DNA of 63,440 nt, filler included, from Kipferlia bialata (lineage: Eukaryota), in assembly GCA_003568945.1 (NCBI GenBank). It is 6 parts of 5 records of this genome, joined end to end, with 100 filler letters (N's around TTAATTAATTAA, not from the genome) between each part and the next. Parts side by side here need not be neighbours in the genome. Positions count along the whole stretch, not along the records: positions 13,393 to 26,677 come from BDIP01000967.1; 5 more parts are not named here. One strand, given 5' to 3'. Shown here piece by piece: positions 13,671 through 26,677 of the stretch. Position 1 is the stretch's first letter. The number at the start of each line of letters is the position of its first letter. Both the position numbers and the translations under genes were made by a program. The notes beneath the pieces were generated by a model that worked only from the letters and a program-made list of their open reading frames with translations, ran no database searches and was not told where the DNA came from.

Positions 13671-13767
13671 CTGATGTGAGTGGTAGAAAGGCCAATGGTC
13701 TTGGTTGGTCCGATGACGTGAATGACAAAGGGTCTAGTGCATAAAAAATATGAACCTGCTCTCATAC

Positions 13768-14136
13768 TCATTTCAGCCTAATGCCTACTAGACTGCCTCG
13801 GGGATAGTGAGAATGGCTTCTGTGCACTGTCTTGAGGTCAGGGAACAGCTTACCAACGTTACACATGAATGTTCTCTTGTTAATTGTCTCTCTCCCAATA
13901 TCAGTCTTGGCAATAAAGTCCTCGTACAGCTGGCACTTGTTTACCTCTGCATCCTCAGCCATTTCTACGTGGTCAGTGAAGTACTGCTGGATAAGAGAGT
14001 GTTTCTCCTGCAGACTGAGCTTATAGTGGATCTCTCTTACCTTCCCTTCCCCAATTGAGTGCTTCAGCTCCTGAATATATGTATGTGTCAGTGGTGTCTC
14101 TTGGTTGAGTGTCAGTACAACAGTAACAGTAGTCAT
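13768..14136 (-). CDS. RFX-like / D5-C-terminal winged-helix DNA-binding protein
   Basis: QYFTDHVE...VNKCQLYEDF...INKRTFMCNVGKLFPDLKT...LVGIRLK resembles the RFX DBD pattern (LY..Y...VN.ASFGK.IRSVF..L.T...YYGIRLK). Confidence 0.6.
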   Translation of the reverse strand: MTTVTVVLTLNQETPLTHTYIQELKHSIGEGKVREIHYKLSLQEKHSLIQQYFTDHVEMAEDAEVNKCQLYEDFIAKTDIGRETINKRTFMCNVGKLFPDLKTVHRSHSHYPRGSLVGIRLK

Positions 14137-14194
14137 AGGTTGGTATATATACGAATGGATCTATTCAATTAGATTTGAACACACTAGACTATCC

Positions 14195-14842
14195 CTAGAA
14201 GAACTGGGAGATATCCTCGTAGCCATGCTTTGGCCTCTTGGCCTTACTCTTGGCCTTACCCCTGTGATTTGTGCTAGTTATTGTCTCTCCTGCAGACATG
14301 GACTGTCCATCAGTGATGTTGGGGTTGTCTGCCTCCACTGTTAGCACATCCTCGTCCTCCTTCGTGGTTTTGAGATGTGTCCTCCCCAGCTCTTGCTTTC
14401 TGGGCTTCACAAAGAGATTGTTGTTGGTGCCATACTCACCCCCATCACCAGCTGCTCCCCCTCCCCCTCCATATGCCTTGATGTGTCTAGCAAAGCCAGA
14501 TGCAAAGCCTATGAATGATGCCTTGTCGTGATTGGATCCTGTCTCACTGTTATACTCCTTCAGTATCAGGTCCTCTACCTCCTTCTTTGTGGCCTTTATG
14601 CCGTCTTCTGCAAGGGTGGCACAGGCATCAGCTACCACTCTCGTCATTCTCTTGCCTGCAAATATGTCCTGCACAGCGCCGACTGCGACCTCTTTCACCA
14701 TTGGCTTCAGTGCAGCAGAGATGTGCTTGAGGGATGACCCAACCTTATCAGCTGCCTTCTTAACAGCCTTTCCTGCCTTGTGGGCTGCATCCTTCGCCCA
14801 TCCATTTCCATAGTTGCCATAACTGTAACAATCAAAGTCCAT
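14195..14842 (-). CDS. Viral ORFan, Lys/Ala/Gly-rich (possible core/DNA-condensing protein)
   Basis: 215-aa ORF with element promoter motif upstream; basic N- and C-terminal segments and a poly-Gly tract. Confidence 0.6.
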   Translation of the reverse strand: MDFDCYSYGNYGNGWAKDAAHKAGKAVKKAADKVGSSLKHISAALKPMVKEVAVGAVQDIFAGKRMTRVVADACATLAEDGIKATKKEVEDLILKEYNSETGSNHDKASFIGFASGFARHIKAYGGGGGAAGDGGEYGTNNNLFVKPRKQELGRTHLKTTKEDEDVLTVEADNPNITDGQSMSAGETITSTNHRGKAKSKAKRPKHGYEDISQFF

Positions 14843-14922
14843 TCTTGTGTAACCGTGTATATATAGAGAGCCGATTTATATAATTATATTATTAAATGTT
14901 TGTATATATAATATATTCAGAC

Positions 14923-15486
14923 ATGAGCAACATCAAAGCGCATATTCACAACCATGGCATGACGATACAGGGTCTCTCCATGTTCATAAACCGGTTCTAT
15001 AGACCACTGATGGGGAAACTGAACTACATTATCACTGGGACAGATGCTGCTGGGGGTATAGAGATACTGGGTGAGTTTCTCTCAGAGAATAGTACAATCA
15101 TATTCAATAGGATAGAGGGGGGCGGTGCTCACTTCACCTGTGTCTATGTCTGCGAGGAGGTGCAGCAGGCTGTGTACTTTGACTCTACCAATCTAACCCA
15201 GTGTCACTCTGATATTGTGGAGCTGTATAAGGAGGATGGTGTCACAGTGTTTGAGGCGTCACAGTATCTCTCCAATGACTTGCAGCTAGATCCAGCCAAT
15301 CACCTGTGCGGGTTCTACTGTGCTGCCTTCCTGATCTATATGCTAGAGAATAAAAAATACTACGTGAATGAGACAGATGCTGATACCATTACCACAATAT
15401 ACCTGCGGCTGATGCTGACATACAATACAATGTTCTATGGCAAGAGTATTAGTGAGAGTGTGTCTATTCTTGACGCCTTTTTCTGA
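14923..15486 (+). CDS. Adenain/Ulp1-like cysteine protease (capsid maturation protease) 1
   Basis: N..GGGAHF (His), VYFDS (Asp), LQ......LCGFYC (Gln/Cys); start at MSNIK after promoter motif. Confidence 0.85.
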   Translation: MSNIKAHIHNHGMTIQGLSMFINRFYRPLMGKLNYIITGTDAAGGIEILGEFLSENSTIIFNRIEGGGAHFTCVYVCEEVQQAVYFDSTNLTQCHSDIVELYKEDGVTVFEASQYLSNDLQLDPANHLCGFYCAAFLIYMLENKKYYVNETDADTITTIYLRLMLTYNTMFYGKSISESVSILDAFF

Positions 15487-24758: not shown

Positions 24759-24840
24759 TAGTAGCAGTAGCAGTGGCAGTATATATGGCAAACATAATAA
24801 TACAATTATATATATTGTGGCTACTATATACCCGAACCCA

Positions 24841-25887
24841 ATGAAGATCAAGTATGGTCATAACACCTATAGAGAAGTCAATCTGGCGCAAATACAGGCC
24901 AACTATCAAAACCTCTCAAAGATAAAGCCAGTGATATGTGTCGTCAAGAATAATGCGTACAACCTCGGGCTACTGGAGGTCACAAATGCCCTCATCAGTG
25001 TTGGAGCGTCCATCTTTGCGGTCTTCACTGTTGATGAGGCTATACGTATCAGAGTCAAGTATCCTATGGCCAAAGTGCTAATACTGGGCTATGTCTCCCC
25101 AAATGACATTGACACCGTCTCCAAGCTCAACATCTCTGTCATCGCTTACGACACTGAGCTGCTGGAAAAGTACCTTGAGAGTACAGACAGAGTGCTGCAC
25201 GTCCACGTTAACAGGAACACTGGGATGTCTAGGCTGTCAACCAAGAAGAAGCTATACAAGTTCAAGCATCCTCGGGTGTACACTGAGGGCCTCATGACTC
25301 ACTTCAGCAACACTGGAGACCTTGTCTACTCTGATAGGCAGGCAGAGGAGTTTGACTCCATCAAGAGTGACATCGTGTACAGGCATGCACAAGCTACAGA
25401 TGCTGTGTTCATGTATGATATGAATGTCTCCCATATCCGGCCAGGTATTGGTCTGTATAAGGATTGCATGACGGTTACTAGTGTCGTAGAGAACATTGCG
25501 ACGTATCCTAAGGGGACGCAGATTGGTTATAGTGCTGGGTATACAACAAGGAGGTCAGAGAGGATTGCGGTCATAGGTATAGGTTATGGCTCTGGTTATG
25601 GACGGCACTATAAGGGTCACCCATTTGTCATCATCAATGGCGTGATATGCTTCGTTATAGGCAATGTCTGTATGAACCAGTTGTACGTCTCTGTGCCGTT
25701 CTCGGCCGATATAGCAATAGGGGATGCCGTCGTTGTTCTGGACAATGAGAAGATCACAACCACAATGATGGCTAGCTGGTTTAACACAATCGAGTATGAG
25801 ATATTCATCAGATTTGGCAACAGCAATATACACACCGTCTATGAGAACACCCATAAGGAGTTCATCAACCCACTATTTAGGAAATAG
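24841..25887 (+). CDS. alr: Alanine racemase-family PLP enzyme (fold type III)
   Basis: CVVKNNAYNLG (PLP Lys), NTGMSRL, EGLMTHFS, IRPGIGLY, QIGYS (catalytic Tyr), IGYGSGY, IGNVCMNQ, TIEYEI; start MKIKY after promoter motif. Confidence 0.92.
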   Translation: MKIKYGHNTYREVNLAQIQANYQNLSKIKPVICVVKNNAYNLGLLEVTNALISVGASIFAVFTVDEAIRIRVKYPMAKVLILGYVSPNDIDTVSKLNISVIAYDTELLEKYLESTDRVLHVHVNRNTGMSRLSTKKKLYKFKHPRVYTEGLMTHFSNTGDLVYSDRQAEEFDSIKSDIVYRHAQATDAVFMYDMNVSHIRPGIGLYKDCMTVTSVVENIATYPKGTQIGYSAGYTTRRSERIAVIGIGYGSGYGRHYKGHPFVIINGVICFVIGNVCMNQLYVSVPFSADIAIGDAVVVLDNEKITTTMMASWFNTIEYEIFIRFGNSNIHTVYENTHKEFINPLFRK

Positions 25888-26113
25888 ATAAATATAGAAG
25901 CCGATATATACTGATACTGATGCCAACACTACAAGAGTACTTTGAGAGTAAGGGATGGCCTCTAGAAGAGTCACCACAGGGTCGAGACTTTCTTATACAG
26001 ATGCAGAGAGAGATCAGTTACTACCTAGAGTATGATGTTCCGCTGTGATCGGCTCATGATGTTCATTTATTTACAAATTGAATATTTCCATACCTATATA
26101 TAACCACACACCA

Positions 26114-26599
26114 ATGACTGACACATTCCCTTCTTCTTGTGATATACAAATCAGAATATATGCTCACATAGAGGACACAAAATCCCTACCAGAGGCATAC
26201 GCCCTCTATGCTCTCAAACAGAAAGCCACCTGGAACACGACAAATATACTCAAATGTGTAGTAGAAAACATCACTGAGCCTGACAGTGTGGTGGATATGT
26301 ATATAGATACTCTAGCATGTTACATTAGAGACAACAAAATAGATGTGGATTCTAGACGTCAGGAGATCAAGCGTTGGGTAGGTATATACATGGTCCGTCA
26401 CAGAACAGTCGAGGAAGCCATTGCATCTGGCTGCTGCGCTGCCGACAGCTTTGAAAAGGGGCACGAGGCAAAGCTAGAGAAGTACCTTGAACTCACAGGA
26501 TATGCACCTACACAGGAGGACGTGTATCACTTTATACGCAAGGGGTTTGTTAGGACTGCGAGCAAGTACATGCACATCCTTTCCAACGATGAGTACTAA
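26114..26599 (+). CDS. Viral ORFan 161 aa
   Basis: ATG 26114 downstream of AATTGAAT-N11-TATATA; TTTTTTAT after the stop. Confidence 0.65.
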   Translation: MTDTFPSSCDIQIRIYAHIEDTKSLPEAYALYALKQKATWNTTNILKCVVENITEPDSVVDMYIDTLACYIRDNKIDVDSRRQEIKRWVGIYMVRHRTVEEAIASGCCAADSFEKGHEAKLEKYLELTGYAPTQEDVYHFIRKGFVRTASKYMHILSNDEY

Positions 26600-26662
26600 C
26601 ACCCCCCTGTTTTTTATGCGTAACTAATTGTATACAAGGGCGTACATATATAAACGAACCTA

Positions 26663-26677
26663 ATGCCTAACTCTCAC
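26663..26677 (+). CDS. 5' stub (MPNSH...) of a further viral gene cut by the contig end
   Basis: AATTGTAT(26626)-N13-TATATA(26647) followed by ATG 26663, open to the gap. Confidence 0.55.

What the first reader, a model, noticed from the sequence alone, without database searches (positions are those of the whole stretch)
13741..26677. Divergent tyrosine-recombinase Polinton-like virus in a protist genome assembly
Seen: a 13-kb intron-less block with YR integrase, A32 ATPase, MCP and penton candidates and adenain proteases, amid intron-rich host contigs. Established: ATPase, MCP, mCP and protease form the Preplasmiviricota morphogenesis module, and YRs are typical of many PLVs. Inference: all ORFs look intact, so this is a recent endogenous or still active virus, possibly a new lineage from an anaerobic fornicate-like host.
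Basis: partly seen in the sequence, partly recalled or inferred. Interest (0 to 1): 0.9.

Follow-up and report, generated by a model that had tools for sequence, protein, structure and literature searches.

The report
Integrated protist virus with asfuvirus-style signals
A 13-kb set of virus genes from a protist genome (capsid, packaging motor, proteases, a probable integrase and a bacterial-type alanine racemase) starts every gene at TATATA and ends each gene or gene run at a T-run, so it is likely a dormant integrated virus that would be switched on by a giant virus of the pacmanvirus/asfuvirus kind, a partnership we found no report of.

Summary
Real, and more interesting than stated. The block is one whole 13,285-bp contig with 15 stop-free, intron-less ORFs. 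It encodes a double-jelly-roll capsid protein (Foldseek E about 1e-11), a penton-like protein, an A32-like ATPase, two adenain-clan protease candidates (one profile-supported) and a motif-level tyrosine recombinase. It is a Polinton-like virus (PLV) whose capsid protein has only four database relatives (78% to 25%). Unitig depth equals host depth (436-469 vs 441-509), which fits integration, not amplification. (1) All 15 genes start 7-22 nt after TATATA, and 12 sense-strand T6 runs map one-to-one to 12 gene ends; these match the late promoter and terminator reported for pacmanvirus and ASFV. (2) It carries an alanine racemase above the TIGR00492 cut-off, with the catalytic Lys and Tyr, inside the viral unitig. 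(3) No polymerase or helicase was recognised on the contig; an unseen 2.98-kb unitig shares both ends and may hold one. Best reading: a mavirus-style provirophage predicted to depend on an Asfuvirales-like giant virus. Helper, activity, host and termini are not shown.

The parts
13393..26677 (.). Whole contig carrying the element; unique part about 13724-26622
   Evidence: Spacers at 13293-13392 and 26678-26777; graph branch points at 13723 and 26623
13393..13723 (.). Left flank present in two copies (13393-13447 at depth 983; two diverged variants over 13448-13638); host exon/intron or element terminal repeat, unresolved
   Evidence: two host-like splice acceptors on the minus strand at 13671 and 13521, each in the top 1% of 1798 background AGs; a plus-strand frame also stops at 13447
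13768..14136 (-). ORF1, 122 aa, weak RFX-like winged-helix DNA-binding domain
   Evidence: PF02257 E=0.00095, below cut-off
14195..14842 (-). ORF2, 215 aa, unknown; a diverged relative of the ORF1-ORF2 region exists in the same run
   Evidence: 770-bp unitig at depth 377
14923..15486 (+). Protease 1 candidate, 187 aa, adenain-like H/D/Q/C motifs
   Evidence: Motifs shared with protease 2; no profile hit
15464..16450 (-). ORF4, 328 aa, coiled-coil-like with a Pro-Ala repeat, unknown
16527..17822 (+). Probable tyrosine recombinase, 431 aa (R187/188, K224, R301, H324, Y333; Gln in place of the His of HxxR)
   Evidence: catalytic pattern recalled from the family
17808..18512 (-). A32/FtsK-like packaging ATPase, 234 aa
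18594..19919 (+). Double-jelly-roll major capsid protein, 441 aa
   Evidence: relatives at 78, 33, 26, 25%
19958..20740 (-). Minor capsid (penton) candidate, 260 aa
   Evidence: Atlas features 0.97 and TM 0.72-0.74 to viral clusters; penton role inferred from that and from its place beside the MCP
20821..21996 (+). ORF9, 391 aa, unknown (beta-rich by eye)
   Evidence: No significant family
22043..22819 (+). ORF10, 258 aa, acidic with one N-terminal hydrophobic segment
22888..24285 (+). ORF11, 465 aa, unknown; no polymerase or helicase profile hit
   Evidence: fold not tested
24303..24758 (-). Protease 2, 151 aa, adenain/Ulp1 clan
24841..25887 (+). Alanine racemase, 348 aa (K36, R131, H154, R200, Y230, Y319 kept; Asn279 where the bacterial rows aligned have Asp)
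   Evidence: PF01168/PF00842; TIGR00492 186.6 bits vs cut-off 168; inside the 10.9-kb unitig with the capsid genes
25920..26048 (+). Small ORF, 42 aa, with the element's promoter
26114..26599 (+). ORF14, 161 aa, unknown
13743..26615 (.). Twelve T6+ runs, predicted terminators: plus 15726, 18277, 19946, 22012, 22833, 24331, 26610; minus 24294, 19928, 17725, 15357, 13748
26623..26677 (+). Right flank shared with a second, 2.98-kb unitig; holds TATATA and an ATG at 26663, probably the start of a further gene cut by the contig end

Best explanation
This is a Polinton-like virus, likely integrated at about host copy number in an intron-rich protist genome, whose genes all start just after TATATA and end at T-runs, so it is predicted to stay silent until a giant virus of the pacmanvirus/asfuvirus kind infects the cell and its RNA polymerase reads these signals. 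Shown: capsid fold, packaging ATPase motifs, one adenain-clan protease, promoter and terminator grammar, depth equal to host, racemase linkage. Inferred: the tyrosine recombinase excises and re-integrates the genome; the helper's late transcription machinery (TATA initiator, short 5' UTR, poly-T stop) expresses all genes in its factory; DNA is copied by helper enzymes or by a replication gene on the unseen 2.9-kb segment; ATPase, capsid proteins and proteases build virions, as mavirus does with CroV. The racemase is a bacterial-derived cargo gene, likely active on alanine and expressed only under the viral promoter; its most likely use is interconverting D- and L-alanine in an infected bacterivore (for example salvaging D-Ala from prey cell walls), which is untested.
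For: DJR capsid, penton-like protein (48), protease (129), ATPase motifs (9, 88). TATATA ends 7-22 nt (median 11) before 15 of 15 starts, against 8 of 538 other ATGs in the contig (two of the 8 are the 42-aa ORF and the cut gene at 26663) and 109 of 1888 host ATGs. Twelve T6+ runs against 2.0 +/- 1.3 expected (max 6 in 100 resamples); all lie outside same-strand coding DNA and map to 12 different gene ends (0 of 200,000 random placements avoided coding DNA); 11 of 12 are followed by A. Host DNA has 2 such runs in 48.7 kb, and 1 of 11 long host ORFs has the upstream motif, 0 of 11 the downstream run. Pacmanvirus lostcity: late promoter TATATA and 3' motif WWTTTATTTTTTAWW (PMC11788076, passages); ASFV: late initiator TATA, median 5' UTR 9 nt, poly-T terminator (PMC7163114, passages); faustovirus and kaumoebavirus share TATATA (PMC5974111, abstract). 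Shared signals are the accepted basis for assigning virophage helpers (PMC8547959, PMC11814242, passages). Depth 436-469 vs host unitigs 441-509 in the same run. JGI relatives of MCP, recombinase and racemase are 78, 77 and 82% identical, as expected if the racemase travels with the virus.
Against: No helper virus was seen. TATATA and T-runs are low-complexity AT motifs that other giant viruses, or host polymerase II on a viral template, could use; few true host starts were available as controls and starts were chosen with the motif in view. The full 15-letter pacmanvirus 3' motif is matched at only 9-12 positions, and ASFV terminators are typically 7 T whereas 9 of 12 here are 6 T. Both contig ends run into two-copy sequence, so no host junction is proven; depth comes from Logan unitigs of the probable source run, which the tool says is no copy number. 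The recombinase has no significant profile or fold hit. The three JGI proteins lie on separate short contigs whose linkage could not be checked. A 71% racemase relative annotated in K. bialata on a 5.5-kb contig may be a cellular gene, so capture from the host is open.
Confidence: 0.5

Rival explanations
1. An autonomous, nucleus-replicating PLV (TsV-like lifestyle) that uses host polymerase II; TATATA is its own minimal promoter, the T-runs its 3'-end signal, and the replication gene lies on the unseen 2.9-kb segment that shares its ends.
For: A 2,980-bp unitig at depth 491 joins 13723 to 26623 by another route, and the right end begins a further gene with the element's promoter. TSV is described as a nuclear lytic PLV and replication modules are swapped freely (10.64898/2026.06.19.733378, section 7). 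Host DNA is itself rich in TATATA tracts, 3.4 per kb.
Against: Long host ORFs mostly lack the motif at this spacing and lack T6 runs; the 7-22 nt spacing fits a viral initiator better than a TATA box about 24 bp upstream of the start site; the promoter and terminator both match Asfuvirales.
Confidence: 0.24
2. A helper-dependent provirophage whose helper is a different nucleocytovirus with similar AT-rich signals, for example an egovirus or other poxvirus relative, or an undescribed lineage.
For: Egoviruses are proposed to infect metamonads and exchange genes with their polintons (10.1101/2024.03.23.586382, passages); 10 of the 12 T-runs (11 sites found in all) also fit TTTTTNT, the poxvirus early stop signal (motif recalled); PLVs accompany entomopoxviruses (PMC11296320, passages).
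Against: Mimivirus-type AAAATTGA is in 0 of 15 upstream regions, TCTA in 5 of 15 and TAAAT in 8 of 15 without fixed spacing; 70-nt windows at the T-runs fold only weakly (-5 to -15 kcal/mol), with no sign of a hairpin rule. Egovirus promoters are not described in the passages read.
Confidence: 0.16
3. A free (episomal or co-cultured) virus whose depth matches the host's by coincidence, with the 13-kb and 2.9-kb parts forming one circle with two direct repeats, or two segments.
For: No host junction is proven; the graph shape (two routes between the same two ends) fits a circle A-J-B-J; a plus-strand frame stops exactly where the left repeat diverges.
Against: Depth within about 10% of two long host unitigs; left flank has host-like splice acceptors that splice in frame.
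Confidence: 0.07
4. The racemase is a host or bacterial gene merely assembled next to, or trapped beside, a decaying viral insert.
For: A 71% relative is annotated in K. bialata; codon use does not separate element from host well.
Against: One 10,861-bp unitig without differences spans recombinase to ORF14; the gene is intron-less, has the viral promoter, is followed by two more viral-promoter ORFs, and is only about 30% identical to bacterial enzymes but 82% to a JGI protein.
Confidence: 0.03

Closest known systems
Mavirus and EMALEs of Cafeteria burkhardae (Maveriviricetes)
   Same: Integrated small DJR virus in a protist with MCP, penton, ATPase and cysteine protease; one promoter motif before the genes, used to infer the helper; some EMALEs carry a tyrosine recombinase (PMC8547959).
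   Different: Promoter TATATA, not TCTA; no rve integrase or pPolB recognised; MCP 9-10% identical in structure alignments and not favoured over other DJR proteins; no TIRs found on the contig.
Polinton-like viruses with tyrosine recombinase (PgVV/Gezel, TSV, entomopoxvirus-associated PLVs; ungrouped Metamonada PLVs)
   Same: Size, morphogenesis module, YR-type integrase, endogenous state (PMC10120064; PMC11296320). The VC40 group also lacks detectable replication genes.
   Different: Two protease candidates (protease is a core gene only of Gosseviruses among major PLV groups), a racemase, no primase-helicase beside the recombinase, and an MCP with only four database relatives. Cultured helpers so far are Imitervirales and Algavirales (10.64898/2026.09.29.755237, abstract).
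Pacmanvirus lostcity transpoviron (pltv)
   Same: A small element carrying the TATATA late promoter of an Asfuvirales virus (PMC11788076).
   Different: pltv is a 7-kb capsid-less episome with a helicase; this element encodes its own virion and appears to sit in the cell's genome.
Bacterial alanine racemase Alr (TIGR00492)
   Same: Above the equivalog cut-off; catalytic Lys and Tyr and the Tyr354-equivalent that favours alanine over serine (PMC4542195) are kept.
   Different: About 30% identical to the best bacterial hits, long branch; Asn at the Asp of the CMDQ motif and at the Lys of KxDTGM; encoded by a 13-kb eukaryotic virus. One giant-virus genome from Yellowstone Lake lists an annotated alanine racemase (PMC4602308 table), untested.

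Membership tests
Polinton-like viruses (Preplasmiviricota) | Double-jelly-roll major capsid protein | tested here: met
   second roll poorly modelled (residues 310-387 under pLDDT 50)
Polinton-like viruses (Preplasmiviricota) | Minor capsid (penton) protein | tested here: met
   Atlas TM 0.72-0.74 to viral clusters, DUF5901 link; that this family is the penton is recalled
Polinton-like viruses (Preplasmiviricota) | A32/FtsK-like packaging ATPase | tested here: met
   Motifs and Pox_A32 E=0.0024, below curated cut-off
Polinton-like viruses (Preplasmiviricota) | Integrase (YR or rve) | tested here: inconclusive
   YR catalytic motifs conserved in a 77% relative; Pfam E=0.031; weak fold support
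Polinton-like viruses (Preplasmiviricota) | Replication gene (pPolB or primase-helicase) | tested here: inconclusive
   None by Pfam, PHROGs or NCBIfam among 14 ORFs scanned; contig ends unresolved; a 2.9-kb segment is unseen; ORF11 not folded
Polinton-like viruses (Preplasmiviricota) | Placement in a named PLV group by MCP/ATPase phylogeny or group HMMs | not testable with these tools
   No PLV reference set held; MCP found only 4 unnamed relatives
Virophages sensu stricto (Maveriviricetes) | Virophage-specific MCP, ATPase and protease detected by the established HMMs (PMC9952930) | not testable with these tools
   The HMMs are not held; Pfam gave no family for the MCP or three relatives and one more; fold hits do not single out virophages
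Maverick/Polinton elements | pPolB plus rve integrase and TIRs | tested here: not met
   No rve or pPolB hit on the contig, YR-like gene instead; no TIR beyond a 10-bp match explained by terminators. Holds for the contig; sequence beyond its ends is unseen
Helper-dependent provirophage lifestyle | Gene signals shared with a giant virus | tested here: met
   TATATA before 15 of 15 genes and 12 T-run ends match motifs reported for pacmanvirus and ASFV; compared with papers, not with helper genomes
Helper-dependent provirophage lifestyle | Integration in the host chromosome | tested here: inconclusive
   Host-equal depth and a host-like left flank, but no proven junction
Helper-dependent provirophage lifestyle | Reactivation and replication only on helper infection | not testable with these tools
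   Needs co-infection
Alanine racemase (Alr) | Both Pfam domains, equivalog score, catalytic Lys and Tyr | tested here: met
Alanine racemase (Alr) | PLP-dependent L/D-Ala racemisation | not testable with these tools
   Needs an assay

The most novel reading that the evidence does not exclude
The first capsid-encoding virophage-like parasite of an Asfuvirales-type giant virus, stored as a provirophage in an anaerobic flagellate: it has given up its own replication genes, reads out entirely from the helper's late promoter and poly-T terminator, and carries a captured peptidoglycan enzyme (alanine racemase) as cargo. It would also reveal an undiscovered asfuvirus-like giant virus of free-living metamonads.
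Probability: 0.35. Interest if true: 0.88.

Novelty: new variant of a known kind. Interest (0 to 1): 0.74.

Why it matters
Cultured virophages and PLVs use Imitervirales or Algavirales helpers, and only a capsid-less transpoviron has been tied to Asfuvirales in the papers read. An intact endogenous virus with Asfuvirales-type signals would extend provirophage defence to another order of giant viruses and give a ready bait for finding such a virus in anaerobic protists. Reading promoter and terminator grammar is a general way to assign helpers to the thousands of orphan PLVs. A bacterial cell-wall enzyme in so small a eukaryotic virus raises a testable question about D-amino-acid use in infected bacterivores, and shows a route by which bacterial genes move between viruses and protist genomes.

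Tried and rejected
No whole genome was held. Locus searches found no relatives: viral contigs 7 of 7 scans empty, metagenome contigs 2 of 2 empty, prokaryote genomes 1 empty; so synteny in relatives and the racemase donor are untested. The second run of the same sample shows spliced host transcripts and laid no contig on the element; no RNA holder was listed; this is no proof of silence. A 10-bp inverted match at 13739 and 26610 first looked like a terminal repeat (2 of 3000 shuffles, 15 of 5000 random pairs) but is mostly the T-run terminators of the two outward-facing end genes, so it was dropped as evidence for att sites. An idea that the insert splits an intron 5 nt from its acceptor scored poorly and was dropped. 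The recombinase model was poor beyond residue 116; Foldseek and PDB profile searches found no integrase. PDB searches for both proteases, their alignment and the ATPase gave nothing significant. PHROGs gave nothing below E=0.01; Rfam 0 hits. Codon use did not separate element from host: two of four host controls scored as viral. The 18 phage-collection and 373 plasmid hits for the racemase were all under about 32% identity, and several phage rows are evidently bacterial contigs. An 8-sequence tree only showed the long branch and (element, JGI) nearer than the K. bialata protein, support 82. ORF9 and ORF11 folds were not tested. No complex prediction was run: the racemase dimer is a textbook pair and the MCP trimer exceeds the size limit. 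Earlier findings: none by place or sequence.

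
Full report
What is there. The window is several contigs joined by N spacers. The finding is one whole contig, 13393-26677, with 15 stop-free, intron-less ORFs covering 94% of its unique part. It shares no significant DNA similarity with the other contigs. Those are host DNA: a second run shows 14 listed spliced joints, GT-AG on the coding strand.

Virion module. The 441-aa ORF has one close relative (78%, JGI) and three distant ones (33, 26, 25%) in two database searches; none is named. Folded with that five-row alignment (pLDDT 60), it matches double-jelly-roll capsid and scaffold proteins: iridovirus E 1.6e-11, Sputnik 1e-10, mavirus 1.2e-8 over about 500 columns, with low TM scores because the two rolls are mis-oriented. 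VIA gives Z 11.2-8.2 to poxvirus scaffold, EhV, PBCV-1, ASFV, Sputnik, faustovirus, PRD1 and mavirus, mostly over residues 21-250. No group stands out. The neighbouring 260-aa ORF matches viral clusters at TM 0.72-0.74. The ATPase has Walker A/B and the A32 Arg and Gln motifs. Protease 2 is adenain/Ulp1-clan by Atlas features and structure; protease 1 shares its H, Q and C but has no hit of its own. The recombinase keeps R, K, R, H and Y in a 77% relative; profile and fold support is weak. No polymerase, primase, helicase or rve profile hit any of the 14 ORFs scanned.

State in the cell. One run holds all sampled words and may be the source. In it the element lies on two long unitigs at depth 436 and 469; two long host unitigs have 509 and 441. 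This is a rough measure from contigs, but it argues against amplification and for integration. Both ends enter two-copy sequence: 13393-13447 has depth 983, then two diverged variants, and a 2,980-bp unitig at depth 491 connects 13723 to 26623 through other sequence. The left flank has two host-like acceptors in the top 1% of background that splice in frame, which suggests a host gene; the right flank looks like the start of another viral gene (TATATA, A/C-rich spacer, ATG; 4 of 1888 host ATGs look like that). Tandem A-J-B, two loci, two alleles (the named relative species is reported diploid, PMC5874029 section 11) or a circle all remain possible. The element's termini and completeness are therefore open.

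Transcription grammar. TATATA ends 7-22 nt before 15 of 15 starts, against 8 of 538 other ATGs in the contig and 109 of 1888 host ATGs. Starts were picked with the motif in view, but 11 of the first 14 are the first ATG of the frame or were so chosen, and the MCP start agrees with its relative. Twelve T6+ runs occur where 2.0 +/- 1.3 are expected; all are on the sense strand outside coding DNA and each follows a different gene, 9-455 nt after the stop; the three genes without one (ORF2, racemase, 42-aa ORF) are followed in tandem by a gene that has one. Coding strands hold five A6 runs and no T6, partly a codon effect (T4 2, A4 12). The host has 2 runs in 48.7 kb. An earlier AI note on a poxvirus-wired Polinton (e1-8580207, not checked) prompted comparison with helper viruses. 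Pacmanvirus lostcity has late promoter TATATA and 3' motif WWTTTATTTTTTAWW (PMC11788076, passages); ASFV late genes start at TATA with a median 9-nt UTR and end at poly-T (PMC7163114, passages); faustovirus and kaumoebavirus share TATATA (PMC5974111, abstract). Mimivirus, CroV and poxvirus-type motifs occur in 0, 5 and 8 of 15 upstream regions without fixed spacing. Mavirus provirophages are silent until their helper arrives, and shared promoters are how helpers are inferred (PMC8547959, PMC11814242, passages). The match is to short AT-rich motifs taken from papers, no helper genome was analysed, and the full pacmanvirus motif is met at 9-12 of 15 positions, so this is a prediction.

Racemase. 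24841-25887 has both Alr domains and passes TIGR00492 (186.6 vs 168). K36, R131, H154, R200, Y230 and Y319 align with the conserved residues of solved enzymes; Y319 is the position that favours alanine over serine (PMC4542195, passages); two other conserved positions are Asn, effect unknown. It lies inside the 10,861-bp unitig with the capsid genes and has the viral promoter. Relatives: 82% (JGI), 71% (annotated K. bialata), then about 30% bacterial. The JGI identities for MCP, recombinase and racemase (78, 77, 82%) fit one fragmented sister virus, but the contigs could not be fetched. Whether it came from bacteria directly or through the host is open. Its role is inference: D/L-alanine interconversion during infection of a bacteria-eating host is the most economical guess.

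Against what is known. It fits Polinton-like viruses, not Mavericks (no pPolB or rve on the contig); the virophage HMM test (PMC9952930, passages) could not be run. A 2023 protist survey lists K. bialata among genomes screened, and the name does not occur in the other stored sheets, including Table S4 and the stored part of S5; the file was cut (PMC10120064, passages and supplement). A 2026 framework leaves Metamonada PLVs ungrouped, describes a group without replication genes, and has no mention of racemase, promoters or asfuviruses in its main text (10.64898/2026.06.19.733378, abstract, sections 6-7, word search); its supplements were not visible and may hold related MCP profiles. Cultured helpers are Imitervirales and Algavirales (10.64898/2026.09.29.755237, abstract); entomopoxvirus PLVs are known, without promoter analysis (PMC11296320, passages). 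Searches: PLV plus Kipferlia 0 papers; none of 20 listed of 158 PLV/virophage papers mentions alanine racemase; racemase plus giant virus 6 papers, two opened: racemase-fold decarboxylases (PMC9992855) and one annotated racemase in a Yellowstone giant virus (PMC4602308); virophage/PLV/Asfuvirales/late promoter/TATATA 2 papers, neither describing such a virophage in the passages read. The library omits most subscription journals.

Verdict. A real, intact-looking, probably endogenous PLV of a deep capsid lineage (about 0.95 for PLV-type virus, 0.75 for integrated). Helper dependence about 0.65; an Asfuvirales-like helper about 0.5. New variant of a known kind; interest 0.74.

Noticed in passing
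run X1, record 7 (joins window 13723 to 26623): A 2,980-bp unitig at depth 491 shares both ends of the element but none of its interior at 90% likeness: candidate missing replication module, second segment, or other occupant of a paralogous or allelic site.
   Followed up: partly
run X1, record 5 (matches 13899-13922 and 14466-14577): A 770-bp unitig at depth 377 is a diverged relative of the ORF1-ORF2 region, so a second related element or remnant is in the same sample.
   Followed up: no
P0007 (NCBI, annotated Kipferlia bialata, 5,507-bp contig): A 71% relative of the viral racemase with Ala at the Tyr354-equivalent position, which in bacterial enzymes governs alanine versus serine preference; may be a domesticated or second viral copy with shifted specificity.
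   Followed up: partly
window 13650-13723: The short perfectly shared stretch before the left branch point holds a 10-bp palindrome at 13666-13675 and CCAAT- and TGACGT-like boxes (motif names recalled); possible cis element.
   Followed up: no
window 951-13096: Fourteen RNA-supported host introns (53-347 nt) are GT-AG with weak donors and a branch-point-like CTCAC/CTAAC just before the acceptor.
   Followed up: partly
window 7302-8261 and 9262-10317: Two intron-less Kelch-repeat paralogues in tandem in the host contig; a similar ORF at 48175-49137.
   Followed up: no
window 1751-3249: SET-domain gene with RNA-supported introns.
   Followed up: no
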